From an uncultured Holophagales bacterium (GTDB lineage: Bacteria > Acidobacteriota > Thermoanaerobaculia > Multivoradales > UBA5704): a stretch of DNA of 64,000 nucleotides. Shown one piece after another: positions 2,016 to 41,691 of the stretch (positions are counted from its first letter, which is position 1; each line of letters begins with the position of its first letter). Location: NCBI GenBank assembly GCA_963842525.1, contig CAWJGT010000023.1:128001-192000 (forward strand), in the 5' to 3' direction. A program made the position numbers and the translations under genes. The notes below the pieces were generated by a model. It did not search any database, had not been told where the DNA came from, and worked only from the letters and a program-made list of their open reading frames with translations.

Positions 2016-7413
<5,398 letters not shown>

Positions 7414-25533: not shown

Positions 25534-26154
25534 CTACCGGCGCCGCCACAGATCGAGCTGTGCACGCAGCCGTTCGACAGGGAAACTCCCTGATCGTAGA
25601 ACCACCGGACCCGGCTCCTCTATTGCCACCAGCGTCGACGGCGGACCGCCGGGCAGGACTCCGCCGTCCACCACCACCGCATTCTCGCCTGCCAGAAGCG
25701 CGGCAGCCTCCTCTGGATCGAGGACCGGCGCGCCGCCGCTCCGGTTGGCGCTGGTGGCGGTCAGGCCGTGCCCGAGCTCTGCAAGCAACCGCCGCAGGCC
25801 GTCGTGCCGGGGGATGCGGACCGCGAGGGTCGGCTCCCCGGCGGCGGCCGGCACCGGCCGCGCGAGCGGCAGGAGCACGGTGAGGGGCCCTGGCCAACAC
25901 GCCGAAAGAGGCTCCAGTATAGGGAGGTCGGGATCGATTCCCAAATCCGCGAGCTGCGCGAGATCCGCGACCACCACGGGGAGCGCCTTGCCCCGTTCCC
26001 GCTCCTTGATCCTGTAGATCGTCTCAACCCCGATCGGGTTCCATGGATCGGCGCCGAGGCCGTAGCTCGACTCGGTGGGAATGGCGAGCACACCGCCGCG
26101 GGTGAGGACCGCGCGCAAGGGGGCGACGGGGTCGCCGGGACGAAAGATCCTCAC
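25534..26154 (-). CDS. tsaC: L-threonylcarbamoyladenylate synthase (Sua5/TsaC/YrdC)
   Basis: PTESSYGL, IKER..KAL, WPGPLT, TSANRSG. Confidence 0.9.
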   Translation of the reverse strand: MRIFRPGDPVAPLRAVLTRGGVLAIPTESSYGLGADPWNPIGVETIYRIKERERGKALPVVVADLAQLADLGIDPDLPILEPLSACWPGPLTVLLPLARPVPAAAGEPTLAVRIPRHDGLRRLLAELGHGLTATSANRSGGAPVLDPEEAAALLAGENAVVVDGGVLPGGPPSTLVAIEEPGPVVLRSGSFPVERLRAQLDLWRRR

Positions 26155-26160
26155 CCCCTG

Positions 26161-26202
26161 TCCCCCTCTCCCATCGCCCCCCCACCGACCGGGAGAGGGG
26201 GG
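26161..26202. repeat. REP-like intergenic hairpin (CCCCCTCTCCC...GGGAGAGGGGG); related copy at ~39031-39090
   Basis: Inverted repeat arms seen directly; similar arms CCTCTCCC...GGGAGAGG recur near 39050-39088. Confidence 0.6.
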
Positions 26203-26360
26203 ATCACCCGATTAGTGATCTCAGCGGTGTTCATGTGATCTCATTGCGGCCTTCCTCGGGGGGAAGAGGTTCCATGTGTTGCCATTTTGGACCAATTCTC
26301 GCCAGAAAGCGTTGAGCTGTGTGACCCGTGTGTGACCCAAGTTATGCTATACTTACGCCC

Positions 26361-27665
26361 ATGAGCTACAACATCAAATTTGAGGATCGCACCCTGCGCG
26401 GTCTCCGCGTTCCCGATGGCAAGGACAGGCAGGAATGGAGTGACACGGTGGTCCCGGGGCTTCGCTTCCGCAAGAGCGATAGGGGGCATGGCTCCTTCTC
26501 CGTCGTCTACAGGGTCAAGGGTCAGGACAAGCAGGACCGCAGGACCATCGGACCCTTTCCCAGGCTCTCGATCGCTCAGGCCCGGGAGGAGGCTCGACAG
26601 GATCTTAACGCCGCCAGCTCGGGACGGGACCCGAAGAAGCTCCGGATGGCTCCTCCCGAGGCTCCCGAGGAGCGCCCCATTACCTTCGCGGAGCTCTTCG
26701 AGCTCTACATGGAGCGCCACGCTCGCGACCATCTCGCGACTTGGTACGACGTCCAGCGGCGGGTCCGCAAGGATGTGATTCCCGTCATCGGCCAGATGCC
26801 CGCTGGCGAGGTGCGCAAGCGCCATCTCCATCTGGTCATCGACCGGCTCGTCACCGGGGGGCACGCCGTCAGCGCTCGCGGCCTGCTGTTTGTGATCTCG
26901 GCTGTCTTCACCTGGGCCGAGGGGCGCGAGCTCGTCGAGTACAACCCGGTCCGGCGCTTCCCCTACCCCAAGCCGGCCGTGCCTCCGGAACGCAGGAGTC
27001 TTTCCGACGACCAGCTCCGGGCGCTGTGGTTTGCCCTCCTGGAGATCGCCGACCAGCCGGTGCCCGAAAAACAGGAGGAGCTGCACAACGGCCAGTTCAC
27101 TACGACCCGGGATCTGTTCGCTTTGGTGGTGCTGACGCGGCTCCTGCTGGGCCAGCGCACCACCGAAACCGTCGGCATGCGCCGCCAGGATCTGGAGGCT
27201 CAGTGGTGGAACCTGCCTGGCTACATCGGGCGGCGGCGGTACACGAAGACGGGACGGGATCACCGGGTGCCGCTGCTGCCGCTGTGGAGCGAGTATGTGC
27301 TGCCGCGCGTCGAGAGGTTGAGTGCCGGGCGGCCGTATGTCTTCCCCAGCGATCGGCTGCAGGACCAGCACCTCCACGCCGAGAGCATTACGTCGTTCTG
27401 TTCCCGAGTGTCGGCCAAGGTGGGCTTCCCCTTCGTGGCTCGCAACCTGCGGACGACGTTCCTGACTTCCATGGCTCGGCTTGGTGTGCCGCAGGAGGTC
27501 CGGCGGCGTCTGGTCAACCACACTGATGGGACCATCGAAACGATTCACTACAACCTTTATGACTACGACGCCGAAAAGTGGGCGGCCGGGCTGCGTTGGG
27601 ATGCCCATCTTCGGGGCATCTTTTTCGGCGAGACGGCTCAGGTAGCGCCCTCTCAGGCCGCCTAG
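26361..27665 (+). CDS. int: Tyrosine integrase with N-terminal arm-binding domain (P4-like)
   Basis: DTVVPGLRFR..TIGPFPRLSIAQAREEA arm domain; GQRTTE, KTGRDHRVPL, RNLRTT, LVNH, HYN catalytic residues; TGcTATACT just upstream of ATG. Confidence 0.9.
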   Translation: MSYNIKFEDRTLRGLRVPDGKDRQEWSDTVVPGLRFRKSDRGHGSFSVVYRVKGQDKQDRRTIGPFPRLSIAQAREEARQDLNAASSGRDPKKLRMAPPEAPEERPITFAELFELYMERHARDHLATWYDVQRRVRKDVIPVIGQMPAGEVRKRHLHLVIDRLVTGGHAVSARGLLFVISAVFTWAEGRELVEYNPVRRFPYPKPAVPPERRSLSDDQLRALWFALLEIADQPVPEKQEELHNGQFTTTRDLFALVVLTRLLLGQRTTETVGMRRQDLEAQWWNLPGYIGRRRYTKTGRDHRVPLLPLWSEYVLPRVERLSAGRPYVFPSDRLQDQHLHAESITSFCSRVSAKVGFPFVARNLRTTFLTSMARLGVPQEVRRRLVNHTDGTIETIHYNLYDYDAEKWAAGLRWDAHLRGIFFGETAQVAPSQAA

Positions 27666-27704
27666 GTGGCTAAAACCGGCTGCCTGCTTCCGGTTTTTCA
27701 GCGG

Positions 27705-27732
27705 AAAACCGGCTGCGGGCAGCCGGTTTTTT
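27705..27732. terminator. Probable bidirectional intrinsic terminator between int and alpA
   Basis: AAAACCGGCTGC-GG-GCAGCCGGTTTTTT perfect inverted repeat between convergent genes. Confidence 0.7.
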
Positions 27733-27984
27733 CTAGGCGGCCCAGTCGCGCCGGCCTTCTTGCCATTCGCGGAGCTTGTCCACGCGAAAGGCTTCCCTGC
27801 CTGGGCTTAGCGTCTCCGGAGCGGGGAATCGGCCGACCGCGATTTCCCGCCGCAATGTGGACCGGGACAGGCTTGACCAGTTGATCACCTCGGGCCAGGT
27901 CATGAACCGGGGGAGCACCTCACGGACGTTGGACAATGTGTGGCGGCTCGGCAAGGGCTGATGCGGTCTGCGGTCGTTTTTCAT
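27733..27984 (-). CDS. AlpA-family excisionase/regulator
   Basis: MTWPEVINWSSLSRSTLRREIAVGRFPAPETLSPGREAFRVDKLREW AlpA pattern. Confidence 0.85.
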   Translation of the reverse strand: MKNDRRPHQPLPSRHTLSNVREVLPRFMTWPEVINWSSLSRSTLRREIAVGRFPAPETLSPGREAFRVDKLREWQEGRRDWAA

Positions 27985-28024
27985 TGGTTTTCTCTATTGG
28001 GACCCTGAATGCTACGTTCCGCAC

Positions 28025-28121
28025 AGTGTATGTGTAGAGCGGCATCGATGTCAAGGGAAAGGGCAGGAATTCCGGGTTTTCCGAGAGGGGATTGCTTATG
28101 CGGCTAGCGACACCGTATCAT
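28025..28121. promoter_or_regulatory. Divergent sigma70-type promoters for alpA (-) and XRE repressor (+)
   Basis: Minus: TTGACA(28054-28049)-18nt-TACACT(28030-28025); plus: TTGCTT(28092-28097)-18nt-TATCAT(28116-28121), ATG 6 nt later. Confidence 0.65.
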
Positions 28122-28127
28122 GTTGGT

Positions 28128-28508
28128 ATGGCTGCTAAAGATCCCTTTGAAGGACTTGGACAAGCGCTCGCCCGACTCCGGGAGTGGCGCGGCTTCGCGA
28201 CGCAGACGGATGCGGCAGAGGCCCTTGGCTTCGACAAGGGTCAGTTGTCGCGCTGGGAGAGTGAGAAACCTCGGCCCACTCTCGAGAACCTCGGCCGCCT
28301 GCTTGCGGCCTACGGAGTCGGCCTGGCGGACCTGGTGGCTCTCTTGGAGGAGGTCCGCCGGCCGAAGCGGAAGACACTGGATCGATTGGCCTATGACGCC
28401 GAGATGGCCCGGTTGAGCGAGTTGCTTCGGCAGATGGAGGAGAACCAGGCCGAAGCAAAGAGCCGATTGAAGACGCTCGAGGGGCTGTTGTATGAGAGCA
28501 AGGGATAG
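28128..28508 (+). CDS. XRE-family HTH repressor with coiled-coil tail
   Basis: LARLREWRGFATQTDAAEALGFDKGQLSRWESEKPRPTLENL. Confidence 0.88.
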   Translation: MAAKDPFEGLGQALARLREWRGFATQTDAAEALGFDKGQLSRWESEKPRPTLENLGRLLAAYGVGLADLVALLEEVRRPKRKTLDRLAYDAEMARLSELLRQMEENQAEAKSRLKTLEGLLYESKG

Positions 28509-28519
28509 CCTGCCGGGCC

Positions 28520-28751
28520 GAAAGGGTGCACTCCGCTGCACCCTTTTCCGAGAAAGGGTGCAATGGGCTGCGCCCTTTTCTGCCGAAAGGGCGCAATGGG
28601 CTGCGCCCTTTTCCCGAGAAAACGCGCGCTTGGCCGCACCTTTTCCGCGAGAAACGCGCGGCGGGCCGCGCTTTTTTCCGCGAGAAAACGCGCAGTGGGC
28701 CGCGCCTTTTTCCACGAGAAACGCGCGGCTTATAGGTTGAATGTCGGACAG
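28520..28751. repeat. Tandem array of ~7 imperfect palindromes (~32-bp period) ending in a 22-bp conserved box
   Basis: Units such as GAAAGGGTGCA-N6-TGCACCCTTTTC; TTATAGGTTGAATGTCGGACAG at 28730-28751. Confidence 0.8.
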
Positions 28752-28969
28752 GGCCAGGCCCTATCTCTACCTGGAAAAGAGCTGGGCGGCTGGGACGGAC
28801 ATGGAGGGTCTTCGGGCGGAGCTTCTATGTGGACCACCGGTGTCAAGCGTCTCAGGGTTGTTCGTCCTCCCCTCCTTTTTGGGTGGTTTCGCCGAGGGCT
28901 TCTGCATCGCGTTGGGGCGTTTGGTCTCCCTTTCAGTTTCTGGCGCTTGCCGGTGTGCCAGGACCTGGT

Positions 28970-29130
28970 CGTCCTTTCCAGCTTCTATCCGTGCTGACCT
29001 CACCTTTGGGTCAGGCACCAAATGCAGCATGCGCTGCGAGCGACTCAGGCAAGCTTTAGGAGCGGCCCCATCTGAGGAAAACGGTTCGGAAGCCCGAACC
29101 AAGCTCCGCCCCGGGCACGCTCCACCAGTC
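28970..29130 (-). ncRNA. Putative bridge RNA/seekRNA (target- and donor-binding loops); ends approximate
   Basis: Minus strand has GGGCGGAGCT (29111-29102) and CTCAG (29076-29072) around hairpin GGTTCGG/CCGAACC, matching the insertion site; ATAGAAG (28988-28982) is complementary to donor junction CTTCTAT. Confidence 0.75.
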
Positions 29131-29182
29131 TTTCTCGGAGACCTCCCCTCTTGTCCCTCCTTACCTGGAATTCTGTTCCAGA

Positions 29183-30310
29183 CTACTTGGTCTTCAGCTC
29201 AGCACCATCAGGAATCACTCCGTAGTCCAGATAGCGCCACAGCGCGATCAGCAGCTTGCGGGCCAGGGCCACGATCCCCACCCGCCGAGAACGGCGACTC
29301 CCAGGGCCATAGCGCTCCCGAAACCACAAGCTCAGGCGGCTCTGCGGTTGGAAGCGCAACCATCCCCAAGCGATCTCGATCGCCATCACCCGGATCCGGC
29401 GATTCCCCGCCTTGCTGATCCCCTGTTCGATGTTGACCGTGTCACCACTCTGATAAGGCATCGGCGCCAGACCCGCCAAACCGGCCACCTCTCGACGGTT
29501 GCGGAACTGCCGCCAACCGAAGAATTCCACCACGAACAGCCAACCACTGCTGTCCCCAATCCCCTTGAGCTTTTGCAGCCGCTGCACCTTTTCCGTCGCT
29601 TCCACTGTGGCCTTCTGGCGAAATCGTTCGACCGCTGCAATCTGACTCTCCAGAAGAGCCAGCCGCTCGCCCTCTCGCCTCAGACGCTCCCGCAAGCTCG
29701 AAAGCAGCCTCTCGCCGTTCCACTGCGTCGCCTGATCCAACTGCTGCAGGAAGCCCTTGCCGACCTTCACTCCCCGAGCCCCCACGCTGGCCAGCAGGCC
29801 CTTGATCCGATTCGTGTGGGCCGTCCGCTCCTGCTTCAGCGACTCAAGCTCCCGGGCCAGGTGACGCTCATCCTCCTGCTCGGGCGTCGGCGCGTGCGCC
29901 ACCCCGAACACCTTCTTCTCCCCGCGCTCGTAACGGATCAACAATGACAGCAACTTCTCCACGTCCACCCCATCCGTCTTGGCCCGCCGATGCCGCCGAT
30001 TCACCTCGATGCTCGAGGAGTCCATGACGACGTTTTCCACTCCTTCCGACAGCAGGAACCGATGCAACCAGAACCCATCCCGCCCGGCCTCGTAGCAACT
30101 CACCACCCGAGCCGACTCCGGCACGCCGAGGCGATGCTTGGCCCGAGCGATCTCCAGCATCAGCCCGTTCAGATCGCCGGCCGCAACCGTCCGCTGACTC
30201 GCCTTGCGTCCAGCCTCCACACCAAACCCCAGCCTCCACTCGCTGGCGCCGAGCTCCAGGGCCATGTGCAACACCGCCTCCGTTCGCGTAGACTCGGTCG
30301 TCTGGTTCAT
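29183..30310 (-). CDS. IS110-family DEDD recombinase/transposase
   Basis: ALELG, CYEAG, KTDGVD, GLAPMPYQSG, ISKAGNRRIR, VALARKL; AAAGGAG RBS. Confidence 0.95.
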   Translation of the reverse strand: MNQTTESTRTEAVLHMALELGASEWRLGFGVEAGRKASQRTVAAGDLNGLMLEIARAKHRLGVPESARVVSCYEAGRDGFWLHRFLLSEGVENVVMDSSSIEVNRRHRRAKTDGVDVEKLLSLLIRYERGEKKVFGVAHAPTPEQEDERHLARELESLKQERTAHTNRIKGLLASVGARGVKVGKGFLQQLDQATQWNGERLLSSLRERLRREGERLALLESQIAAVERFRQKATVEATEKVQRLQKLKGIGDSSGWLFVVEFFGWRQFRNRREVAGLAGLAPMPYQSGDTVNIEQGISKAGNRRIRVMAIEIAWGWLRFQPQSRLSLWFRERYGPGSRRSRRVGIVALARKLLIALWRYLDYGVIPDGAELKTK

Positions 30311-30559
30311 CGGGGTTCTCCTTTCTAACCCGTTAAAGTTCCCCGAAACATACAACCGGCGACCCGCTTTTGCATCCCCCCTCGCCCTGCATAGCATCTG
30401 AGATGGACCGGCGTAGCGGTAGGGCCTCAACTGCCCGCCTGGATACTCCCAAAAAACGTGCACTCGGCTTCCCCTTTTCTTGAAAAGGTGCAATGGGCTT
30501 CACCTTTTCCTGGGGTGCTTGCAAGAGAGCGCCGGCCTCTCTAGGCTGAGCGGCTCAGA

Positions 30560-31993
30560 ATGAACGTTGATCTCTGGCCGCATCGGCTCTTCTGGATGGG
30601 GGATCCTCGGGCGGTGGCGTTTTTCAGTGTGAAAGTCCCGGTTGACGAGCTGGGACCCTGGCCCTGGGAGGAGTGGCGCCCCTGGCAGCAACGCTCGACA
30701 TCCACGAAGCTGCTCGATGGATGGTTCGGGAACAACAAGCAGCACCTCCGCCGCGACTCCTTCGCCGCTAGCAACCGCTTCTATGGCTGGCACCGCGCCC
30801 AGGAGTATGTCGTCCGCCTGGGTGCGACTTTTGTGGACATCGATTGTGGCCGCAGCGCCTTCGACCTTTCGGCCCTGGAGGCCGCGGACATTCTGGTCGG
30901 GCTCGTGGATCTCGGCTTGCTGGTGCAGCCTTCGATGTTCCAGTTCTCTGGCCGGGGCTTGTGGGCCTTCTGGCTCCTCCGCGACGAGGAAGACTCGAGC
31001 ACGACTCCTTTCGCGAACGCCCACAACCGGGAGCTGTGGACGTCGCTCCAGCAGCACACGGCCGACACGATCGCGGAGGCTTTCCCGAGCCTGAAGCTGG
31101 ACCGGCCGGCGGGCGAGCTCACCCGCGTGACTCGGCTGCATGGAAGTGTGAATCCCGCGGCTGGCCGGCGAGTGCGTTACGAGCTGCTCCCGAATGCGGC
31201 CGGCGAGCCGGTCCGCTACAGCCTGGAGGAGCTGGCCGATTTCTACGGCCTGTGGCGGCCTGGCCGTCTCCGGCCTCTCGACGAAGCCGAGGAGGACCGG
31301 CGAGATCTGGCGCTCGAAGCCCACCGCAGGCGAGAGGACGCGCGGGAGGAGGAACGCCAGCGGAAGGAGGCCGTCCAAGCAGGGGGCGGTCCGAGCCACT
31401 CGGAGCGGGGACGGCAGGGACACGTGAAGCTCTGGCGAAATCGGTTGCGCTTCCTCGATCGGGTGCGGGACGAAATCTATGGCGGTGTGATCCCCTGCGG
31501 CCACCGGTACCACATGCTCTCCGCCTATGCCTACTGCTACGCGAAGCTGATGCAGGATTTTTCGGAGCTGGCGGGCAAGGTGGCGACGATCGGCCGCAAG
31601 TACTGCGCGCAGCCGGCGGGAGACTTGATCACGGACGCCGAGCTGCGGCGGATCACGGCGCACGCCCTGGGATGGGCTCGGAGCGGGCACCAGATCACGA
31701 ATCGGAAGCTCGCGGCCTTTGCGGGCCTCGATCCGGTGGCGGACCGGGAACGGATTGAGCGGCTCGGCTTGAACCTCTCGACCGGCCCCAAAGGTCGGAA
31801 CGAGCGAACGCAGGCGCGGCGCGAGTTGGCGCGGGAGATTCTTCGGGCGGCGCTCGATCGCGGCGAAGATCCGCCAAGCGCGCGGAAGCTCGCGCAGGTT
31901 CTCACGGATCAGGGGTGCGCCACCGGGCGATCGACTGCGCATGCGCTCCTGGTGGAGCTTTCGGCGGAGCTCGGGCGCGGAGATGGCCCGTAG
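30560..31993 (+). CDS. AEP-superfamily primase-like replication protein with C-terminal HTH
   Basis: FVDID (motif I), FSGRGLWAFW (motif II, His replaced), RVTRLHGSVN (motif III), helical PriCT-like segment, PSARKLAQVL HTH. Confidence 0.7.
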   Translation: MNVDLWPHRLFWMGDPRAVAFFSVKVPVDELGPWPWEEWRPWQQRSTSTKLLDGWFGNNKQHLRRDSFAASNRFYGWHRAQEYVVRLGATFVDIDCGRSAFDLSALEAADILVGLVDLGLLVQPSMFQFSGRGLWAFWLLRDEEDSSTTPFANAHNRELWTSLQQHTADTIAEAFPSLKLDRPAGELTRVTRLHGSVNPAAGRRVRYELLPNAAGEPVRYSLEELADFYGLWRPGRLRPLDEAEEDRRDLALEAHRRREDAREEERQRKEAVQAGGGPSHSERGRQGHVKLWRNRLRFLDRVRDEIYGGVIPCGHRYHMLSAYAYCYAKLMQDFSELAGKVATIGRKYCAQPAGDLITDAELRRITAHALGWARSGHQITNRKLAAFAGLDPVADRERIERLGLNLSTGPKGRNERTQARRELAREILRAALDRGEDPPSARKLAQVLTDQGCATGRSTAHALLVELSAELGRGDGP

Positions 31994-32094
31994 ACGCGGC
32001 GTTTTTCAGTGTACGCGCTTGCGCCGAAGGGCGCGGACGGCCATATAGGGCATGATTTGGGTTCCAGGTTCGCTACCGCGACACCCTGCCCCCT

Positions 32095-32355
32095 TTATAG
32101 GTTAAATGTCGGACAGCCAGCCGGGCGCGAACCGGCACGCGACTCGGCCGGGGAAACGACTTCAGGGGAAAAAGGTGGCGCTCGGCCGCCCCCTTTTGCG
32201 CAGAAAGGTGGTGGCCGGCCGCCACCTTTTCGACCCCACGCACGTGCTCGGGCGAGCACGCGACTCGGCCGGGGGAAACGACTTCAGGGGAAAAAGGGTG
32301 CGCTCAGCCGCGCCCTTTCGGGCTGAAAGGGTGCGCTCTACCGCGCCCTTTTCGA
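32095..32355. repeat. 22-bp box plus palindrome array with duplicated ~40-bp unit
   Basis: TTATAGGTTAAATGTCGGACAG at 32095-32116; CACGCGACTCGGCCGGGGAAACGACTTCAGGGGAAAAAGG twice; AAAGGGTGCG-N-CGCGCCCTTT hairpins. Confidence 0.8.
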
Positions 32356-32357
32356 CC

Positions 32358-33653
32358 TCACGCACGCGCCCGGGCGAGGGTGGCAGCGACTTCGCGGGCC
32401 AGATCGGCGGTGGCGGTTTCGCGGCGGGCGGCTTCCTGGAAAACGAGGAGGGCGGCCAGGGCTTCGCGGGAGATGTCCAGGTCTCGGAAGACGGTCACTG
32501 TCTCGTCGGCCAGGTGGCGGACTTCGGTGGCCTCCCCCTCTTCCATGTAGGAGATCGCCAGATCCAGGGCGGCGAGGGCGGCGTCGAAGGCGTTGCCGTC
32601 GTCGAGGAACTTCTGGCGGACCTCGGCCAGGAGATCGCGGGCCCGGACTTGGTCTCCCAGGCCGGCGACGATGCGGCCCTCCACCCAATCCAGACGGACT
32701 CGGTCGAGAGCGCTTCCGTGGGCTGCGGCTACCGCCTTCAGTTCTGGCAGAAGGTCGGCCGCCTCTTGATGTCGGCCGGCCTTCGACAGGCTGTCCACCA
32801 GGTTGTGGCGAACACAGAGGACGAGACGCGGCTCCCGGGCCGGGTCTATGAGTCCGTTTGCCTTCCTCAAGGCCTCGATGGCGGCCTCAGGTTCGCCCAA
32901 CTCGATGAGCGCTCCGGCTTTCAAGATGAGACTTCGGCCGGCGAGGTGCGGATCCCGGTGCTCGGGTTGGCCCTCCAGGAAGAGGGCCACGGCCTGGTCG
33001 AGCAGCTCGAAGGCTTCGGGAAAGCGGCGCTGCGCCACGCGAAGGGAGGCCTTCAGGTCCAGGAGGACAGGCTCGTAGCCGAGGGCGTCTTCGGAATCCT
33101 CGGTTCCCGCCTCCCACCAGGAGTCCGACATCTCGAAGCACCGCTCGCCTGCGGGCAGATCGCCCTGCACTCGGCGGGCGTTGCCGAGCCCGGCCCAGGC
33201 AAGGCTTCGGAGCTGGTAGACCCAGCGCTCCTCGAATAGCTCGCTGTCCGAGATCCTGTCCGCCACGTGGACGGCGAGGTCAGCGAGGTGGAGGGCCTCC
33301 GCCGGCTGCTCCGGCGCGGTCTGGCAGCTCCTGCGGACCAGCAGCTCGCAGAGACCCCAGCTCACGAAGCGCGGGTCGGCGTGGAGGCGGGCCAGGCGGT
33401 CCTCCGGATCGAGCGGCGCGAGCTCCTGCAGGAGCCGGGGGGCCTCGGCCTTGGACCGGGCGAGGGCCGCGTCGATTGGACCAAAAACAGGAGGGAGGGC
33501 GTTGGCCTGGTGAAGCTCGAGGAGCCAGCCGCCGACCTCTCTACAGCGGGGACAGAGGTCCAGCAGGTGGAAGAGTTGCTCATTCTGCTCCGCCGTCCGA
33601 TCCGTGGCGAGCAGACGCTCCAAAGCGGCGGCGTCGAGGTGCTTGTGCTCCAT
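32358..33653 (-). CDS. TPR-like helical-repeat protein with N-terminal HxxxxCxxC motif
   Basis: MEHKHLD..HLLDLCPRC; AWAGLGNARRVQGD and further TPR-like helices; GAGGGG RBS. Confidence 0.8.
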   Translation of the reverse strand: MEHKHLDAAALERLLATDRTAEQNEQLFHLLDLCPRCREVGGWLLELHQANALPPVFGPIDAALARSKAEAPRLLQELAPLDPEDRLARLHADPRFVSWGLCELLVRRSCQTAPEQPAEALHLADLAVHVADRISDSELFEERWVYQLRSLAWAGLGNARRVQGDLPAGERCFEMSDSWWEAGTEDSEDALGYEPVLLDLKASLRVAQRRFPEAFELLDQAVALFLEGQPEHRDPHLAGRSLILKAGALIELGEPEAAIEALRKANGLIDPAREPRLVLCVRHNLVDSLSKAGRHQEAADLLPELKAVAAAHGSALDRVRLDWVEGRIVAGLGDQVRARDLLAEVRQKFLDDGNAFDAALAALDLAISYMEEGEATEVRHLADETVTVFRDLDISREALAALLVFQEAARRETATADLAREVAATLARARA

Positions 33654-33726
33654 GCGATCCCCTCCTCGGATTGTTCTCGGCGGAGAATAATAGCGTAGGT
33701 GCGGAACATCGAGAAGGCTGATGGCG

Positions 33727-33760
33727 AAAATGCGGGCCGGAAAACCGCCGCCCGGCCCGC
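33727..33760 (-). terminator. Probable terminator after the peptide gene
   Basis: GCGGGCCGG...CCGGCCCGC stem followed by ATTTT on the minus strand. Confidence 0.55.
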
Positions 33761-33768
33761 AAGCACGC

Positions 33769-34050
33769 TCAAGGACGGCCGTTGGGATCGAGGATGGAGC
33801 CGTTTTCGCTGCCGGGCTCGGAGCTCGTGCTGGCGCCGCTCGACTCAAGGGCGGAGCCGGTCTCGCTCCAGATGGCGGAGAGGAAGCTCCAGAGCTGGGC
33901 GAAGAGGCCCGGGGTTGTCTGGGAGTGCTCGGAGGTTGAGTGGATGGTGTGGCCCAGGGGCAGGGCCTTGGCGTGGGCGGGGGCGAGGAGGATAAGGGCC
34001 AGCAGGGCGAGGGTGAGGATGAACAGGGGACGGGTGGGGTGTCGGGGCAT
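33769..34050 (-). CDS. 93-aa secreted peptide ending in GSILDPNGRP
   Basis: MPRHPTRPLFILTLALLALILLAPAHA signal peptide; tail ETGSALESSG..ENGSILDPNG; GAGG RBS. Confidence 0.75.
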   Translation of the reverse strand: MPRHPTRPLFILTLALLALILLAPAHAKALPLGHTIHSTSEHSQTTPGLFAQLWSFLSAIWSETGSALESSGASTSSEPGSENGSILDPNGRP

Positions 34051-34127
34051 TTGGACCTCGTGAGGGCCGCCACGGCTGCGGCCGCCATGGCCGGAGGGGG
34101 CGAGGCCTTCAGGAGGAAGTGTGCGCT

Positions 34128-34237
34128 GCCCTACCTGGAACAGAGCTGAGATGTGGGGGACGGACACAGAGAGACTTCGGGCGGAGCTGCGAGAGGCCGG
34201 CGTGGCGGTAGGGCCGCAACTGCCCGCCTGGATGCGG
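34128..34237 (+). repeat. Repeat R2 (empty)
   Basis: GCCCTACCTGGAACAGAGCTG..GGGCGGAGCTGCG..CAACTGCCCGCCTGGATGCGG. Confidence 0.85.
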
Positions 34238-34351
34238 GGGAGTGGCCGAGGGGCGAAGGGCACCCTTGGCGGGTGAGGGGCCTCACCCAGGAGCAGATAC
34301 ACTGGGAGCTGTAGATCGACCGGCGCCGTGGCGTCGAAGAGGGTGGCATGA

Positions 34352-34527
34352 TCGGGCGGACCTGAGTGGGGGCCGGCGTGGCGGTAGGGGCCTCAACTGC
34401 CCGCCTAGAACTCCACGGAGGGCCGGAGGACACGGGAGCTTACCCCCGGGCCGGCTGCGATAGCCGCCCTCGGGAGGAAACGGGTGGCACGTATTCCGGG
34501 CGCACCTATCCCGGGCACCTATCCCGG
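34352..34527 (+). repeat. Repeat R2b (3' half plus extension shared with 41295-41440)
   Basis: GGGCGGACCTGAGTGGGGGCCGGCG..AACTCCACGGAGG..ACGGGAGCTTAC..GAGGAAACGGGTGGCAC.. Confidence 0.8.
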
Positions 34528-35276: not shown

Positions 35277-36248
35277 ATGAGTCGACTTATTATTGTAGGT
35301 GGTGCCTCTGGAGCTGGAAAATCATTTTTGCTACAAAACATTGCACTACTCGATCTCACTGTGGTAGTCGTTCGTAAATTGACAACAAGAAAGCCTCGGC
35401 CCTACGAAAGCGCTAGCGGACCGGTTGAAGATCTAGAACTCAGCACGCCGTTAGCGAGCGTCAAGCAATGCGACTATGTCTATCAATATGGCAAAGACTG
35501 GTACGGCGCGCGGCGGCAGGACATCAAACAGGTCCTCTTGGCGGGGAAAAACCCGATTCTCATAGTTCGAAACTGCAGGACTATACATAAGATTCTGCAC
35601 GATTTCCCAGGCGCACTGGTTGTCTATCTTCAATCTGGATTGAGCGGTGACGATCTCAAGGAAAAGCTTCTAGAACAGGGGCGTCAAGATATCGACATCG
35701 ACGAAAGGATGCGACGGAATCTGGCCGACTTTAACGAATATGTTCGTCACATCTACTTGTTTCGTCATGTCCTAATAAATTTTTTCGATGATCTTCTATT
35801 GGATCAAATGCAGGCTATCCTTCAGTATGAGATAACCGATGACGATATTTTGCCAGATTTCGTTTTTGTGTTGATGTCATTCAATCCCGATTTTACAAGT
35901 GTGTACAAAGCTATGTGCGCGGCGGGCATGCTGGTTAAAGGGCGGACCCTGCGCGTGGAGCGCATAGACGCAAAGCTCGGTGATTACAAGATAACAAATG
36001 AGGTGCTTCGCAGTATAAGAAGATCTGCACTTATTCTTTGCGAGGTCTCAGAGGAGCGACCCAATGTTTACTATGAACTTGGCTATGCCCGGGGGCTCGG
36101 AAAGACAGTAATTCCTTGCGCCAGAGCTGGAACAACTCTTCCCTTCGATGTCAAAGACTTTCGTACTATTTTCTACTCCGACCCAATCGATCTACAGGAA
36201 AAACTAGTGGCGGAGTTCATCGCCGCCTTCAACGGAAGTGAGAAATGA
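35277..36248 (+). CDS. Guanylate-kinase-like P-loop domain fused to nucleoside 2-deoxyribosyltransferase-like domain
   Basis: GGASGAGKS, TTRKPRPYE, YQYGKDWYG; C-terminal FVLMSF..RPNVYYELGYARGLGK..LPFDV. Confidence 0.8.
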   Translation: MSRLIIVGGASGAGKSFLLQNIALLDLTVVVVRKLTTRKPRPYESASGPVEDLELSTPLASVKQCDYVYQYGKDWYGARRQDIKQVLLAGKNPILIVRNCRTIHKILHDFPGALVVYLQSGLSGDDLKEKLLEQGRQDIDIDERMRRNLADFNEYVRHIYLFRHVLINFFDDLLLDQMQAILQYEITDDDILPDFVFVLMSFNPDFTSVYKAMCAAGMLVKGRTLRVERIDAKLGDYKITNEVLRSIRRSALILCEVSEERPNVYYELGYARGLGKTVIPCARAGTTLPFDVKDFRTIFYSDPIDLQEKLVAEFIAAFNGSEK

Positions 36249-37582: not shown

Positions 37583-37595
37583 GTGGAGGCAAGCT

Positions 37596-39660: not shown

Positions 39661-39866
39661 GCCCTACCTGGAGCAGAGCTGGGATGCTGGGACGGATACG
39701 GAGGGTGCTCGGGCGGAGCTTCTATGTGGACCACCGGTGTCAAGCGTCTCAGGGTTGTTCGTCCTCCCCTCCTTTTTGGGTGGTTTCGCCGAGGGCTTCT
39801 GCATCGCGTTGGGGCGTTTGGTCTCCCTTTCAGTTTCTGGCGCTTGCCGGTGTGCCAGGACCTGGT

Positions 39867-40027
39867 CGTCCTTTCCAGCTTCTATCCGTGCTGACCTCAC
39901 CTTTGGGTCAGGCACCAAATGCAGCATGCGCTGCGAGCGACTCAGGCAAGCTTTAGGAGCGGCCCCATCTGAGGAAAACGGTTCGGAAGCCCGAACCAAG
40001 CTCCGCCCCGGGCACGCTCCACCAGTC
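39867..40027 (-). ncRNA. Putative bridge RNA/seekRNA, copy 2
   Basis: Same sequence as 28970-29130. Confidence 0.75.
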
Positions 40028-40079
40028 TTTCTCGGAGACCTCCCCTCTTGTCCCTCCTTACCTGGAATTCTGTTCCAGA

Positions 40080-41207
40080 CTACTTGGTCTTCAGCTCAGC
40101 ACCATCAGGAATCACTCCGTAGTCCAGATAGCGCCACAGCGCGATCAGCAGCTTGCGGGCCAGGGCCACGATCCCCACCCGCCGAGAACGGCGACTCCCA
40201 GGGCCATAGCGCTCCCGAAACCACAAGCTCAGGCGGCTCTGCGGTTGGAAGCGCAACCATCCCCAAGCGATCTCGATCGCCATCACCCGGATCCGGCGAT
40301 TCCCCGCCTTGCTGATCCCCTGTTCGATGTTGACCGTGTCACCACTCTGATAAGGCATCGGCGCCAGACCCGCCAAACCGGCCACCTCTCGACGGTTGCG
40401 GAACTGCCGCCAACCGAAGAATTCCACCACGAACAGCCAACCACTGCTGTCCCCAATCCCCTTGAGCTTTTGCAGCCGCTGCACCTTTTCCGTCGCTTCC
40501 ACTGTGGCCTTCTGGCGAAATCGTTCAACCGCTGCAATCTGACTCTCCAGAAGAGCCAGCCGCTCGCCCTCTCGCCTCAGACGCTCCCGCAAGCTCGAAA
40601 GCAGCCTCTCGCCGTTCCACTGCGTCGCCTGATCCAACTGCTGCAGGAAGCCCTTGCCGACCTTCACTCCCCGAGCCCCCACGCTGGCCAGCAGGCCCTT
40701 GATCCGATTCGTGTGGGCCGTCCGCTCCTGCTTCAGCGACTCAAGCTCCCGGGCCAGGTGACGCTCATCCTCCTGCTCGGGCGTCGGCGCGTGCGCCACC
40801 CCGAACACCTTCTTCTCCCCGCGCTCGTAACGGATCAACAATGACAGCAACTTCTCCACGTCCACCCCATCCGTCTTGGCCCGCCGATGCCGCCGATTCA
40901 CCTCGATGCTCGAGGAGTCCATGACGACGTTTTCCACTCCTTCCGACAGCAGGAACCGATGCAACCAGAACCCATCCCGCCCGGCCTCGTAGCAACTCAC
41001 CACCCGAGCCGACTCCGGCACGCCGAGGCGATGCTTGGCCCGAGCGATCTCCAGCATCAGCCCGTTCAGATCGCCGGCCGCAACCGTCCGCTGACTCGCC
41101 TTGCGTCCAGCCTCCACACCAAACCCCAGCCTCCACTCGCTGGCGCCGAGCTCCAGGGCCATGTGCAACACCGCCTCCGTTCGCGTAGACTCGGTCGTCT
41201 GGTTCAT
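40080..41207 (-). CDS. IS110-family DEDD recombinase/transposase
   Basis: Same protein as 29183-30310. Confidence 0.95.
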   Translation of the reverse strand: MNQTTESTRTEAVLHMALELGASEWRLGFGVEAGRKASQRTVAAGDLNGLMLEIARAKHRLGVPESARVVSCYEAGRDGFWLHRFLLSEGVENVVMDSSSIEVNRRHRRAKTDGVDVEKLLSLLIRYERGEKKVFGVAHAPTPEQEDERHLARELESLKQERTAHTNRIKGLLASVGARGVKVGKGFLQQLDQATQWNGERLLSSLRERLRREGERLALLESQIAAVERFRQKATVEATEKVQRLQKLKGIGDSSGWLFVVEFFGWRQFRNRREVAGLAGLAPMPYQSGDTVNIEQGISKAGNRRIRVMAIEIAWGWLRFQPQSRLSLWFRERYGPGSRRSRRVGIVALARKLLIALWRYLDYGVIPDGAELKTK

Positions 41208-41451
41208 CGGGGTTCTCCTTTCTAACCCGTTAAAGTTCCCCGAAACATACAACCGGCGACCCGCTTTTGCATCCCCCCTCGCCCTGCATAGCATCTGAGT
41301 GGGGGCCGGCGTAGCGATGCGGCTTCAACTGCCCGCCTGGAACTCCACGGAGGACCGGAGGCCACGGGAGCTTACGCTCGGGCCGGCAGCCCCTCCCGAG
41401 GAAACGGGTGGCACCTATTCCGGCAGCACCTATTCCGGCAGAACACGGACG

Positions 41452-41691
41452 GGCACGGCGACTCGGCCGGCCGGGAACGGCTTCAGGGGAAAAAGGGTGC
41501 GCTCTACCGCACCCTTTCGGGCTGAAAGGGGGCGCTCTACCGCACCCTTTTTCGAGGTGCCCTTGCCCCTCGGCTTGGCTTTGTCCTACCTGAAGTAGAG
41601 CTGAGATGCTGGGACGGACACGGAGGGCGCTCGGGCGGAGCTCAGGGTGGCCGGCGTGACGGCAGGGCCTCAACTGCCCGCCTGGATGCGG
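41452..41691 (+). repeat. Palindrome array followed by repeat R4 (empty)
   Basis: CGACTCGGCC..CTTCAGGGGAAAAGGGTGCGCTCTACCGCACCCTTT like 32258-32355; then CCTACCTGAAGTAGAGCTG..GGGCGGAGCTCAG..CAACTGCCCGCCTGGATGCGG. Confidence 0.85.

What the first reader, a model, noticed from the sequence alone, without database searches (positions are those of the whole stretch)
28824..30399. IS110/IS1111 element with a readable bridge RNA that explains which repeats are occupied
Seen: both insertions reconstitute GGGCGGAG-CT-GAG. The 3' non-coding region, read on the transposase strand, forms a stem (GGAGCG..GCCC / GGGC..CGCTCC, 29059-29123) enclosing GGGCGGAGCT, an inner hairpin, and CTCAG (reverse complement of CTGAG). 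A second loop carries CTGCATTT (imperfect) and ATAGAAG against the donor junction TAGCAT-CT-TCTAT. The three empty repeats each mismatch a guide (CT-GCG at 34187, GGAC-CT at 34362, CT-CAG at 41641). Known: IS110 bridge/seekRNAs guide recombination at a short core. Inference: a natural specificity test and a candidate new programmable recombinase, with Glu in the first DEDD position (ALELG).
Basis: partly seen in the sequence, partly recalled or inferred. Interest (0 to 1): 0.8.

Follow-up and report, generated by a model that had tools for sequence, protein, structure and literature searches.

The report
Bridge-RNA guided insertion sequence, two copies
Two identical copies of a jumping gene of the IS110 family carry, behind the transposase gene, a folded guide RNA whose loops spell out the exact site where each copy sits; this is a clear natural example of a mechanism described in 2024, not a new kind of system.

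Summary
Two 1576-bp copies (28824-30399, 39721-41296; one synonymous difference) sit in GGGCGGAG-CT-GAG. An empty paralogue elsewhere in the genome fixes the boundaries. The 375-aa ORF is an IS110-family RNA-guided transposase by NCBIfam, and its predicted fold matches IS621 and ISCro4.

The 3' non-coding region (about 29128 to 28940, minus strand) has a two-loop bridge/seekRNA layout. The target loop carries GGGCGGAGCU and CUCAG. The donor loop carries GCAUUU and AUAGAAG, which fit the element ends.

The decisive evidence is covariation. Two sibling IS families in the same genome keep the RNA scaffold and donor loop but carry other target guides, and they sit in exactly those other targets. 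Across about 60 homologues from several phyla, guides track flanks (0 of 5000 permutations) and stems show compensatory changes.

"Explains which repeats are occupied" is only partly supported. The three empty repeats in the window each have one mismatch, but three perfectly matching repeats elsewhere are also empty.

Glu at the first catalytic position is conserved in this clade.

Verdict: a real element of a known mechanism, and a new member from a poorly described clade. No RNA or activity was shown directly.

The parts
28824..30399 (-). IS copy 1 (1576 bp). The transposase and the RNA are read on the minus strand. The interval includes one copy of the CT core, at 30398-30399.
   Evidence: Boundaries are fixed by the empty paralogue C27:63707-63849.
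39721..41296 (-). IS copy 2 (1576 bp), differing from copy 1 by one synonymous base.
29183..30310 (-). Transposase/recombinase gene of copy 1 (375 aa plus stop). Putative catalytic residues are E19, E74, D113, D116 and S288. The copy 2 gene is at 40080-41207.
   Evidence: Pfam PF02371 at 1.1e-16, with PF01548 weak. NCBIfam NF033542 at 179.6 bits against a cut-off of 140. Fold matches ISCro4 and IS621 at E about 1e-11. Residue conservation.
28940..29128 (-). Conserved core of the bridge/seekRNA of copy 1 (about 189 nt), closed by CUGGU/GCCAG. The copy 2 equivalent is 39837-40025. The true RNA ends are not known.
   Evidence: Fold. Alignment of 65 homologous regions. Pair counts.
29059..29123 (-). 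Target-binding loop module: basal stems GGAGCG/CGCUCC and GCCC/GGGC enclosing two guides and a hairpin.
29102..29111 (-). 5' target guide GGGCGGAGCU. It equals the left target plus the CT core on the + strand, so it pairs with the bottom strand, like the LTG of IS621.
   Evidence: I15. The siblings carry GCCCAGGGCU and GCGCCAGGCU and sit in those targets.
29083..29100 (-). Hairpin between the two target guides (GGUUCGG-GCUU-CCGAACC).
   Evidence: helix 3: 6 of 7 pairs change on both sides.
29072..29076 (-). 3' target guide CUCAG. It is the reverse complement of CT-GAG, so it pairs with the top strand, like the RTG of IS621.
   Evidence: families A and B carry CUCAG and sit before GAG; family C carries UAAAG and sits before TTA. 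for the wider clade.
28945..29054 (-). Donor-binding loop module, closed by GCUUGCC/GGCAAGC.
   Evidence: helix 4: 7 of 7 pairs change on both sides.
29020..29025 (-). 5' donor guide GCAUUU against the donor left half GCAT-CT: 6 pairs if U.G is allowed at the first core base.
   Evidence: Read. The variable position covaries with the element's 5' end in 35 of 44 homologues.
28991..29018 (-). Hairpin between the two donor guides.
   Evidence: helix 6: many CG<->UA and GC<->AU exchanges.
28982..28988 (-). 3' donor guide AUAGAAG, the reverse complement of CT-TCTAT (core plus donor right half).
   Evidence: It is invariant in the 65 aligned homologues, whose ends all read ...CATAGA-AG. Those 65 were chosen by a search that required this word, so the invariance holds by construction.
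28841..28846 (-). TTGACA on the RNA-sense strand, 17 nt from the core. It is the inferred -35 of a promoter completed only in the circular junction, where the -10-like hexamer GATGCT is the second core base plus the first 5 nt of the other end.
   Evidence: Read. TTGACA lies 16-18 nt from the core in 53 of 61 distinct homologous ends. No sigma-70-like promoter is found in the linear element.
28814..28823 (+). Left target half plus CT core at copy 1. Copy 2: 39711-39720.
30398..30402 (+). CT core plus right target half GAG at copy 1. Copy 2: 41295-41299.
34179..34191 (+). Empty repeat, GGGCGGAG-CT-GCG (one mismatch to the 3' guide).
34354..34366 (+). Empty repeat, GGGCGGAC-CT-GAG (one mismatch to the 5' guide, next to the core).
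41633..41645 (+). Empty repeat, GGGCGGAG-CT-CAG (one mismatch to the 3' guide, next to the core).

Best explanation
This is an autonomous insertion sequence of the IS110 family that chooses its insertion site with its own non-coding RNA.

The element encodes a 375-aa recombinase with a RuvC-like domain, a coiled coil and a Tnp domain. Its putative catalytic residues are E19, E74, D113, D116 and S288. Downstream of the gene lies a bridge/seekRNA of about 190 nt with two internal-loop modules.

In the target module, GGGCGGAGCU pairs with the bottom strand of the left target plus the CT core, and CUCAG pairs with the top strand of the core plus GAG. In the donor module, GCAUUU and AUAGAAG pair in the same way with the joined element ends, ...GCAT-CT-TCTAT....

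By analogy with IS621 and ISEc11, I infer the following. The element excises as a circle. The joined ends create a promoter from TTGACA, an 18-nt spacer and GATGCT. That promoter transcribes the transposase gene and, by read-through, the RNA. A recombinase tetramer holding one RNA then exchanges strands at the CT core between the circle junction and a GGGCGGAG-CT-GAG site. This inserts the element without target duplication.

Shown here: the anatomy, the guide/target and guide/donor complementarity, covariation of both with their DNA partners, conservation of the stems, family membership of the protein, and precise insertion relative to an empty site.

Inferred: transcription and processing of the RNA, the circle, the junction promoter, and the catalytic role of the named residues.
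For: 1. Precise insertion. Both copies sit in the same 13-bp site, and an empty paralogue has a single CT.

2. Sibling families in the same genome. Family B has 5 full copies and 1 truncated copy, and its transposase is 94.7% identical. Family C has 4 copies at 77.8% identity.
- Both have the same ends, CATAGCAT-CT-TCTATGTGG, and the same donor-loop guides.
- Their target guides are GCCCAGGGCU/CUCAG (B) and GCGCCAGGCU/UAAAG (C).
- They lie in GCCCAGGG-CT-GAG (B) and GCGCCAGG-CT-TTA (C).
- Between A and B the scaffold around the guide is identical (17 of 17 and 15 of 15 positions), while 4 of 8 non-core guide positions differ.

3. Homologues elsewhere. I examined 83 sequences: the window, families B and C, and 80 loci from other genomes. 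Of these, 69 have the RNA motifs.
- Longest exact match of the 5'-guide region to its own flank: mean 6.29, against 4.20 for non-cognate pairs (62 distinct elements; 0 of 5000 permutations reach it).
- 3' guide against the 5' flank: 3.98 of 6 identities, against 1.78 (42 elements; 0 of 5000).
- The three bases next to the core are all matched in 25 of 42 cognate pairs, against 162 of 1722 non-cognate pairs.

4. Donor guide. The variable base of the 5' end (AT-N-CTATG) is Watson-Crick to the matching RNA base in 35 of 44 elements, and all four pair types occur.

5. Structure. On a plain MAFFT alignment of 65 regions, 78.3% of cells pair, against 29-49% when the partners are slid. 31 of 42 pairs change on both sides. 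The covariation score is 0.247, against 0.047-0.140 for slid partners. 0 of 500 shuffles reach it on four measures and 1 of 500 on the fifth.

6. Protein.
- NCBIfam 'IS110 family RNA-guided transposase' scores 179.6 bits against a cut-off of 140.
- The AF2 model has pLDDT 83.7. Its best structural matches are the ISCro4 and IS621 recombinases over 362-364 columns, E 3e-11 to 2e-9.
- KTDxxD aligns to IS621's D102/D105 motif.
- S288-G289 lies in G-L-x-P-x-x-x-x-S-G.

7. Geometry matches the literature.
- In IS621 the 5' guide pairs with the bottom strand of the left target and the 3' guide with the top strand of the right target, around a CT core (PMC11208158, passages read).
- In IS1111-type elements the RNA lies 3' of tnp, and the top-strand match is 5' of the bottom-strand match when drawn in tnp orientation (PMC11187229, sections 6, 8, 9, 12, 13 read).

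8. Promoter. The linear element has no sigma-70-like promoter. TTGACA lies 16-18 nt from the core in 53 of 61 distinct ends.
Against: - No direct evidence of the RNA, of a circle or of transposition was obtained.
- The only expression data are contigs assembled from metatranscriptome libraries of three studies. They cover the RNA region of relatives (not this element) at 88-99% likeness, cannot show strand or ends, and may include DNA.
- Rfam 15 has no matching family, either at gathering threshold or at E up to 10. The RNA assignment therefore rests on my own analysis.
- The 5' donor guide is short and imperfect. It makes 6 pairs only if a U.G wobble is allowed, and 9 of 44 homologues mismatch at the covarying position.
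- The N-terminal 56-73 residues do not align to the Pfam or NCBIfam profiles. Placing E19 at the first catalytic position rests on a forced global hhalign, on the secondary-structure topology of a model and on conservation. It does not rest on residue-level superposition.
- The structure was derived from the window's own sequence, which by itself favours it over the slid controls.
- Perfect target sites remain empty: 5 for A, 13 for B and 19 for C. One B copy has 1 mismatch and one C copy has 2 mismatches to the 5' guide. A match is therefore neither sufficient nor strictly required at distal positions.
Confidence: 0.9

Rival explanations
1. The transposase protein alone recognises the repeat, by sequence or by a DNA hairpin. 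Under this reading the matches in the non-coding region are by-products, for example captured copies of the target, with no guiding role.
For: The targets lie in repeated, partly palindromic intergenic sequences. Before 2024 this was the usual explanation for REP-targeting IS110/IS1111 elements (my recollection). No RNA was detected directly here.
Against: The transposases of A and B are 94.7% identical yet their targets differ, and the differences in the RNA region are concentrated in the guide. The match is split into two segments of opposite sense around a conserved hairpin inside conserved stems, which a captured target copy would not be. Guide/flank covariation holds across about 60 elements in unrelated targets. 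The stems show compensatory changes.
Confidence: 0.03
2. The elements are inactive relics. The two copies arose by duplication of a larger segment rather than by two insertions, so the common flank says nothing about targeting.
For: The IS lies inside a multi-copy integrase-bearing element. The two copies are almost identical. The similarity of the left flanks runs on for about 57 nt outside the element (D1 and D3).
Against: Outside the repeat unit the flanks differ: the 84-nt left flanks are 68% alike and the 47-nt right flanks 72% alike. Paralogues of the copy-1 locus on C27 and C23 lack the IS precisely. The ORF is intact and identical in both copies. Families B and C each have several copies in different loci sharing only the short target.
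Confidence: 0.03
3. The conserved 3' structure is mainly a regulatory RNA, for example a terminator or stabiliser of the tnp mRNA, or an sRNA acting on host transcripts. Target selection would then be only loosely linked to it.
For: The hairpin at 29082-29101 followed by UUUU scores as terminator-like. In Pseudomonas putida the RNA downstream of the ISPpu9 transposase gene was first described as the sRNA Ssr9 (PMC12288879; abstract seen only in the listing).
Against: The U-run is not conserved: family B has UUCUC. A terminator or sRNA does not predict covariation of two loop segments with the DNA on both sides of the element, or of two others with the element's own ends.
Confidence: 0.04

Closest known systems
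IS621 (E. coli, IS110 group) bridge RNA and recombinase; also ISCro4
   Same: - Two-loop RNA, each loop with a 5' guide pairing the bottom strand of the left half plus core and a 3' guide pairing the top strand of the core plus right half.
- CT core.
- A long 5' target guide (9 nt in IS621, 10 here) and a short natural 3' target guide (4 nt in IS621, 5 here).
- Recombinase with RuvC-like, coiled-coil and Tnp domains and a Ser-Gly loop.
- Best structural match of the model.
- IS621 details come from PMC11208158 passages.
   Different: - The RNA is encoded 3' of the transposase gene, not 5'. Relative to the CT core, the gene and the RNA run in the opposite direction.
- Sequence similarity is confined to the Tnp domain (phmmer E 2.7e-5, residues 217-365).
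- 375 aa against 326 aa.
- Glu instead of Asp at the first catalytic position.
- Not tested experimentally.
IS1111-group elements with 3' seekRNA (ISEc11, ISPa11, ISKpn4; Siddiquee et al. 2024, PMC11187229)
   Same: - Long non-coding region downstream of tnp.
- The RNA segment complementary to the top strand (tnp orientation) lies 5' of the one complementary to the bottom strand.
- GL-P----SG motif.
- No internal promoter apart from one formed at the circle junction.
- Targets in repeated sequences.
- Paper sections 6, 8, 9 and 12 read.
   Different: - No subterminal inverted repeat of 7 bp or more, only CTATG/CATAG.
- The transposase is longer than the 330-350 aa given for IS1111 transposases.
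- Only 27.6% identity to IS5075 and 26.4% to IS4321, over residues 111-358.
- The paper's phylogeny and supplementary figures could not be consulted.
ISEc21 / ISMch6 'natural redirection' (PMC11187229, section 12)
   Same: Related elements differ by a few bases in the target-defining part of the RNA and sit in correspondingly altered targets.
   Different: Here three retargeted siblings coexist in one genome, each with several copies. One pair has 94.7% identical transposases and differs at 4 of 8 non-core bases of the 5' target guide, so the case is better replicated.
REP-targeting IS110-family elements (ISPpu9 and ISPpu10 of Pseudomonas putida; IS621 in E. coli REPs)
   Same: Site- and orientation-specific insertion into short repeated intergenic sequences. 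ISPpu9 also has an RNA gene downstream of tnp (PMC12288879; abstract seen in the listing).
   Different: The repeat used here belongs to a family of integrase-bearing elements rather than to a genome-wide REP. It has only about 13 members.

Membership tests
IS110 family (RNA-guided DEDD/Ser recombinases) | Tnp domain (PF02371) with a conserved Ser-Gly in G--P----SG | tested here: met
   PF02371 at 1.1e-16. GLAPMPYQSG with S288 invariant and G289 at 90% or more in A2. S is present in 63 of 70 homologues and G in 61 of 70.
IS110 family (RNA-guided DEDD/Ser recombinases) | N-terminal RuvC-like domain (PF01548) with a D-E-D-D tetrad | tested here: inconclusive
   - PF01548 scores only 22.2 bits against a cut-off of 29, over residues 74-175.
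- E74, D113 and D116 are invariant in A2, and KTDxxD aligns to IS621.
- The first position is Glu (E19; 59 of 70 E, 3 of 70 D), not Asp.
- The fold and topology fit a RuvC/RNase H domain.
- The equivalence of E19 to D11 of IS621 rests on a forced global alignment and on its position at the end of strand 1.
IS110 family (RNA-guided DEDD/Ser recombinases) | Whole-protein match to the curated family model | tested here: met
   NF033542 'IS110 family RNA-guided transposase': 8.7e-53, 179.6 bits, cut-off 140, residues 57-363.
IS110 family (RNA-guided DEDD/Ser recombinases) | Insertion at a short conserved core without target-site duplication and without terminal inverted repeats | tested here: met
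   The empty paralogue has one CT and the occupied sites have CT at both junctions. No terminal inverted repeats were found.
Bridge RNA / seekRNA | Two internal loops, each with two guides of opposite sense flanking a hairpin and complementary to the target and to the joined ends | tested here: met
   The DBL 5' guide is imperfect (6 pairs including one U.G).
Bridge RNA / seekRNA | Guides covary with target and donor DNA across orthologues | tested here: met
   0 of 5000 permutations for both target guides; 35 of 44; three sibling families.
Bridge RNA / seekRNA | The RNA is made, binds the recombinase and is required for recombination | not testable with these tools
   Only contigs from RNA libraries of relatives cover the region, with no strand or ends and with DNA not excluded.
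IS1111 group | Longer non-coding region, with the RNA, downstream of tnp | tested here: met
   359 nt lie downstream (28824-29182) and 89 nt upstream (30311-30399).
IS1111 group | Subterminal inverted repeats of 7-17 bp | tested here: not met
   No inverted pair between the two ends appears among the 25 pairs shown of the 120 found (seed 6, minimum 7). By eye only CTATG/CATAG (5 bp) is present, 1 and 3 nt from the core.
IS1111 group | Top-strand-complementary segment 5' of the bottom-strand-complementary segment (tnp orientation) | tested here: met
   GGGCGGAGCU (5') is complementary to the tnp-sense strand AGCTCCGCCC. CUCAG (3') is identical to the tnp-sense strand. The criterion comes from PMC11187229, sections 9 and 12.
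IS1111 group | Transposase clusters with IS1111 relatives (330-350 aa) | tested here: inconclusive
   The protein is 375 aa. It is 27.6% identical to IS5075 over residues 111-358, tblastn E 5e-6. No tree with named references was built.

The most novel reading that the evidence does not exclude
The element represents a widespread clade that fits neither textbook group of the IS110 family. The clade occurs in Acidobacteriota, Chloroflexota, Myxococcota, Gemmatimonadota, Planctomycetota and some Proteobacteria.

Its distinguishing features are:
- a Glu-Glu-Asp-Asp plus Ser active site;
- an N-terminal strand region that the Pfam and NCBIfam models do not cover;
- a 3' bridge RNA with IS1111-type polarity but only a 5-bp subterminal repeat;
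- in this sub-branch, a very asymmetric target code (8+2 nt against 3+2 nt).

In this one genome the clade has been retargeted at least twice by guide changes alone. That would make it a natural three-way reprogramming series and a source of recombinases orthogonal to IS621 and ISCro4.
Probability: 0.35. Interest if true: 0.5.

Novelty: new member of a known kind. Interest (0 to 1): 0.35.

Why it matters
Bridge/seekRNA recombinases are being developed as programmable tools for inserting DNA. Their rules come from a handful of elements, such as IS621, ISCro4, ISEc11 and ISEc21.

This locus adds a naturally replicated case. Three co-resident sibling elements share ends, donor loop and RNA scaffold and differ essentially in the target guides. 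Each has several insertions that match its own guides. That is the outcome a reprogramming experiment would aim for, obtained from natural variation.

The locus also points to a large environmental clade, with thousands of homologues. The clade has a conserved Glu at the first metal-binding position and a very short natural right-target guide. Both features could inform specificity and engineering.

For annotating this genome, it explains 12 IS110-family loci: 2 of family A, 5 full and 1 truncated of family B, and 4 of family C. It also explains why they sit in particular repeats. It does not reveal a new mechanism.

Tried and rejected
- Rfam 15 found nothing for the RNA. There were 0 hits at gathering threshold in the whole window. 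At E up to 10 there were only two chance hits inside the ORF.
- megablast of the element against the plasmid collection gave no match.
- RNAalifold on the MAFFT alignment recovered only 13 pairs, because the hairpins are misaligned. I then supplied a structure by hand instead of building a covariance model. No covariance model was built.
- phmmer and hmmsearch against PDB sequences aligned only the C-terminal domain and the KTDxxD motif. The first catalytic residue could therefore not be placed that way.
- Local hhalign against two canonical IS110 transposases of the same genome started only at E74. Only the forced global mode put E19 under their Asp.
- The promoter scan found no sigma-70-like site in the linear element. 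I did not scan the circle junction, because that would need a joined sequence. The junction promoter is argued from the two ends read separately.
- Sequencing runs. No run held half or more of the element's words; the best DNA holders reached 0.33-0.43 and are soil metagenomes. Of the four RNA-library runs laid, X15, X16 and X18 cover the RNA region of relatives. Parts without cover mean nothing, and no strand, ends or level can be read.
- The idea that occupancy of the repeats is decided by guide match alone was rejected as stated. Perfect sites are empty, and the small table gives p of about 0.13.
- I considered and dropped a tree to place the clade between IS110 and IS1111, because no named IS110-group reference sequences were at hand.
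- A literature search for IS110 together with 'EEDD' found 0 papers. That single search does not show that the variant is undescribed.
- Supplementary files of the papers were not consulted. The ISfinder-wide phylogeny and bridge-RNA tables in them may already include this clade.
Full report
**What is there**

The window is G000:C23:128001-192000 of a 9.95-Mb genome with 67.8% G+C in 34 contigs. Its closest relatives in the contig collection are Thermoanaerobaculia (Acidobacteriota) MAGs.

Two 1576-bp copies of one element lie at 28824-30399 and 39721-41296. They differ at a single base, 29630 G/A, which is synonymous.

Each copy is flanked by GGGCGGAG-CT on the left and by GAG after its terminal CT on the right. 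An uninterrupted paralogue of the copy-1 locus on contig C27 is 100% identical to the joined flanks over 143 nt. It reads GGGCGGAGCTGAG with one CT. The boundaries are therefore exact, and insertion duplicates nothing beyond the shared core.

The word GGGCGGAGCT occurs 7 times in the window against 0.79 expected.

**The protein**

The minus-strand ORF 29183-30310 (375 aa) matches PF02371 at 1.1e-16 and, weakly, PF01548. It also matches the curated NCBIfam model 'IS110 family RNA-guided transposase' at 179.6 bits, against a cut-off of 140.

An AlphaFold2 model built on 34 homologues has mean pLDDT 83.7. Its best matches among solved structures are the ISCro4 and IS621 recombinases over about 362-364 columns, with E about 1e-11 and TM 0.5-0.6.

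Conservation in the 34-sequence alignment:
- E74, D113, D116 and S288 are invariant.
- E19 is present in 90% or more.

In a wider set of 70 ORFs, E19 is Glu in 59 and Asp in 3.

The motif KTDxxD aligns with the D102/D105 motif of IS621. The IS621 catalytic residues D11, E60, D102, D105 and S241 are taken from PMC11208158 (passages read).

E19 closes the first beta strand of the model and E74 closes the fourth, as in RNase H-like folds. A forced global profile alignment puts E19 under the Asp of GVDLG/GIDLH in two canonical IS110 transposases of the same genome. The local alignment reaches only back to E74.

Its structural equivalence is inferred, not shown residue by residue.

**The RNA**

On the minus strand, about 60 nt after the stop codon, a region of about 189 nt (29128 to 28940) folds into two similar modules inside a closing stem CUGGU/GCCAG.

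Module 1 (29123-29059) has these parts:
- stems GGAGCG/CGCUCC and GCCC/GGGC;
- GGGCGGAGCU (29111-29102);
- a 7-bp hairpin;
- CUCAG (29076-29072).

Module 2 is closed by GCUUGCC/GGCAAGC and has these parts:
- (CU)GCAUUU (29027-29020);
- a hairpin;
- AUAGAAG (28988-28982).

Take the + strand as the top strand, so that the core reads CT. Then the first guide equals the left target plus core and pairs with the bottom strand. The second guide is the reverse complement of the core plus right target and pairs with the top strand. This is the scheme solved for IS621, where LTG pairs with the bottom strand and RTG with the top strand (PMC11208158 passages).

The donor, meaning the joined ends, reads ...CATAGCAT-CT-TCTATG.... 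AUAGAAG is the exact complement of CT-TCTAT.

In transposase orientation, the segment complementary to the top strand lies 5' of the one complementary to the bottom strand. The RNA also lies 3' of tnp. Siddiquee et al. describe both features for IS1111-type seekRNAs (PMC11187229, sections 6, 9 and 12).

**The decisive test: relatives with other guides**

The genome holds two sibling families.
- Family B has 5 full copies and 1 truncated copy. It is about 90% identical in DNA from position 116 on, and its transposase is 94.7% identical.
- Family C has 4 copies, is about 76% identical in DNA, and its transposase is 77.8% identical.

All three families share the ends CATAGCAT-CT / TCTATGTGG and the donor-module guides.

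| Family | 5' target guide | 3' target guide | Insertion site |
|---|---|---|---|
| A | GGGCGGAGCU | CUCAG | GGGCGGAG-CT-GAG |
| B | GCCCAGGGCU | CUCAG | GCCCAGGG-CT-GAGGCCG |
| C | GCGCCAGGCU | UAAAG | GCGCCAGG-CT-TTATGCC |

One B copy has one mismatch in the left half, and one C copy has two distal mismatches.

Between A and B the scaffold next to the guide is identical (17 of 17 and 15 of 15 positions). Four of the eight non-core guide bases differ.

Beyond this genome, 80 loci encoding homologues (45-88% identity) were fetched from the species-representative genome collection. With the window and families B and C, that gives 83 sequences. Of these, 69 carry the two RNA anchor motifs in the 3' non-coding region.

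For 62 distinct elements with a recognisable 3' end, I measured the longest exact match between the 5'-guide region and the reverse complement of the element's own flank. It averages 6.29 nt, against 4.20 for non-cognate pairs. None of 5000 permutations reaches that value.

For 42 elements with a recognisable 5' end, the six bases before the core in the 3' guide match the flank at 3.98 positions, against 1.78 (0 of 5000). The three bases next to the core match fully in 25 of 42.

The donor side covaries too. The variable base in the 5' end (AG-AT-N-CTATG) is Watson-Crick to the corresponding RNA base in 35 of 44 elements. The pairs are C:G 23, U:A 6, G:C 4 and A:U 2.

The stems are supported on a plain MAFFT alignment of 65 regions:
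- 78.3% of cells pair, against 29-49% with slid partners.
- 31 of 42 pairs change on both sides.
- The covariation score is 0.247, against 0.047-0.140.
- 0 of 500 shuffles reach it on four measures and 1 of 500 on the fifth.

One caveat applies: the structure was derived from the window's own sequence.

**How it most likely works**

By analogy with IS621 and ISEc11, the element excises as a circle and the joined ends are the donor.

The linear element has no sigma-70-like promoter. A perfect TTGACA lies 17 nt from the core at the 3' end (28846-28841). It is found 16-18 nt from the core in 53 of 61 distinct homologous ends.

In the junction, an 18-nt spacer would follow it, and then GATGCT. That hexamer is made of the second core base plus the first five bases of the other end. 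In the 59 loci of the clade whose 5' end was read, the hexamer is GATGCT in 29, GATACT in 18, GATCCT in 9 and GATTCT in 3.

A promoter completed only in the circle would drive tnp and, by read-through, the RNA. Siddiquee et al. concluded the same for ISEc11 (section 8). This step is inferred.

Contigs from metatranscriptome libraries of three studies cover the RNA region of relatives. In one case the contig is continuous with the 3' part of tnp. These contigs show neither strand nor ends and may contain DNA, so I count this as weak.

**Which repeats are occupied**

The A target lies in a small repeat family of about 13 sites in the genome.
- Two sites are occupied, and both are perfect.
- Three perfect sites are empty (C1:564093, C23:425786, C27:63777).
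- Eight sites carry a mismatch or an indel, and all are empty. These include the three in the window.

Two more perfect 13-mers lie in unrelated contexts and are empty. Families B and C likewise leave 13 and 19 perfect sites empty.

The pattern fits a requirement for a match, especially next to the core. But two of five against none of eight gives p of about 0.13 by hand. A match is plainly not sufficient.

**Comparison and novelty**

The mechanism is that of bridge/seekRNA-guided IS110-family recombination (Durrant et al. 2024, PMC11208160, passages read; Hiraizumi et al. 2024; Siddiquee et al. 2024). Natural redirection between relatives has been reported for ISEc21 and ISMch6.

Features that fit the IS1111 type:
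- the 3' position of the RNA;
- the order of the guides.

Features that do not fit:
- no subterminal inverted repeat of 7 bp or more was found;
- the protein is longer than the IS1111 range;
- the protein is only 27.6% identical to IS5075 over two thirds of its length.

I therefore file the element under the IS110 family with an IS1111-like layout. It belongs to a large, mostly environmental clade. One search returned 8000 of 8000 scored candidates at E of 0.001 or better, and the sources name them only as 'transposase' or 'IS110 family transposase'. Relatives on plasmids of Cupriavidus, Paraburkholderia, Sinorhizobium and others are 43-54% identical.

The element is a new member of a known kind. 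Its most distinctive features are the conserved Glu at the first catalytic position and the three-way natural retargeting within one genome.

**Limits**

- There is no experimental evidence of the RNA, the circle or activity.
- The supplementary tables of the key papers were not available, and they may already list this clade.

Noticed in passing
window 26144-34275: The IS sits inside a segment that is present in several copies in the genome, at 84-94% identity. The copies lie on C23 near 423007, and on C27, C9, C25, C4, C19 and C3.

The segment carries a tyrosine integrase (26328-27665, with Arm-DNA-bind_3, Phage_int_M and Phage_integrase domains) and a Cro/C1-type HTH gene (28092-28508). It looks like a family of integrative elements, and the IS target repeat is one of their conserved intergenic sequences.
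   Followed up: partly
window 28500-28740, 30450-30520, 41470-41560: There are runs of imperfect short direct repeats, with units such as TTTTCCGCGAGAAAACGCGC and GGGTGCGCTCTACCGCACCCTTT. They lie just beside the IS target repeats and look like iterons. Their function is unknown.
   Followed up: no
G000 C4:6269-6380 (not in the window): One member of the target repeat family reads GGGCGGAGCT-TCT-GAG. It has three extra bases at the insertion point, and these equal the first three bases of the IS end. This could be chance or the scar of an imprecise excision.
   Followed up: no
L027 (Thermoanaerobaculaceae MAG contig), about 2800-3170: A homologous element carries a tandem duplication of the donor-loop half and the 3' end, so two consecutive ...CATAGAAG ends are present. 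It looks like a partial tandem or nested insertion.
   Followed up: no
G000 C9:1835726-1836563 (L012/L018) and C12:20674-20710 (L019): A truncated family B copy ends at about position 866 of the element. Separately, an isolated 37-bp match to the IS 3' end lies near a family C target. Both may be remnants of past insertions.
   Followed up: no
G000 C1:88845, C9:1770459, C9:1079395, C9:190657, C9:241743, C9:854834, C3:1636297, C25:402579: The genome also holds at least two other IS110-family lineages with a canonical Asp at the first catalytic position (GVDLG, GIDLH) and full PF01548 matches. One of them (C9:854834) lies next to a family C copy.
   Followed up: partly
window 35277-38972: Between the two IS copies lie genes for three proteins: one like a guanylate kinase and nucleoside deoxyribosyltransferase, one with a NUDIX domain, and one P-loop NTPase of the STAND or Zeta-toxin type. 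All matches are weak. This may be a defence-type cargo of the integrative element.
   Followed up: no
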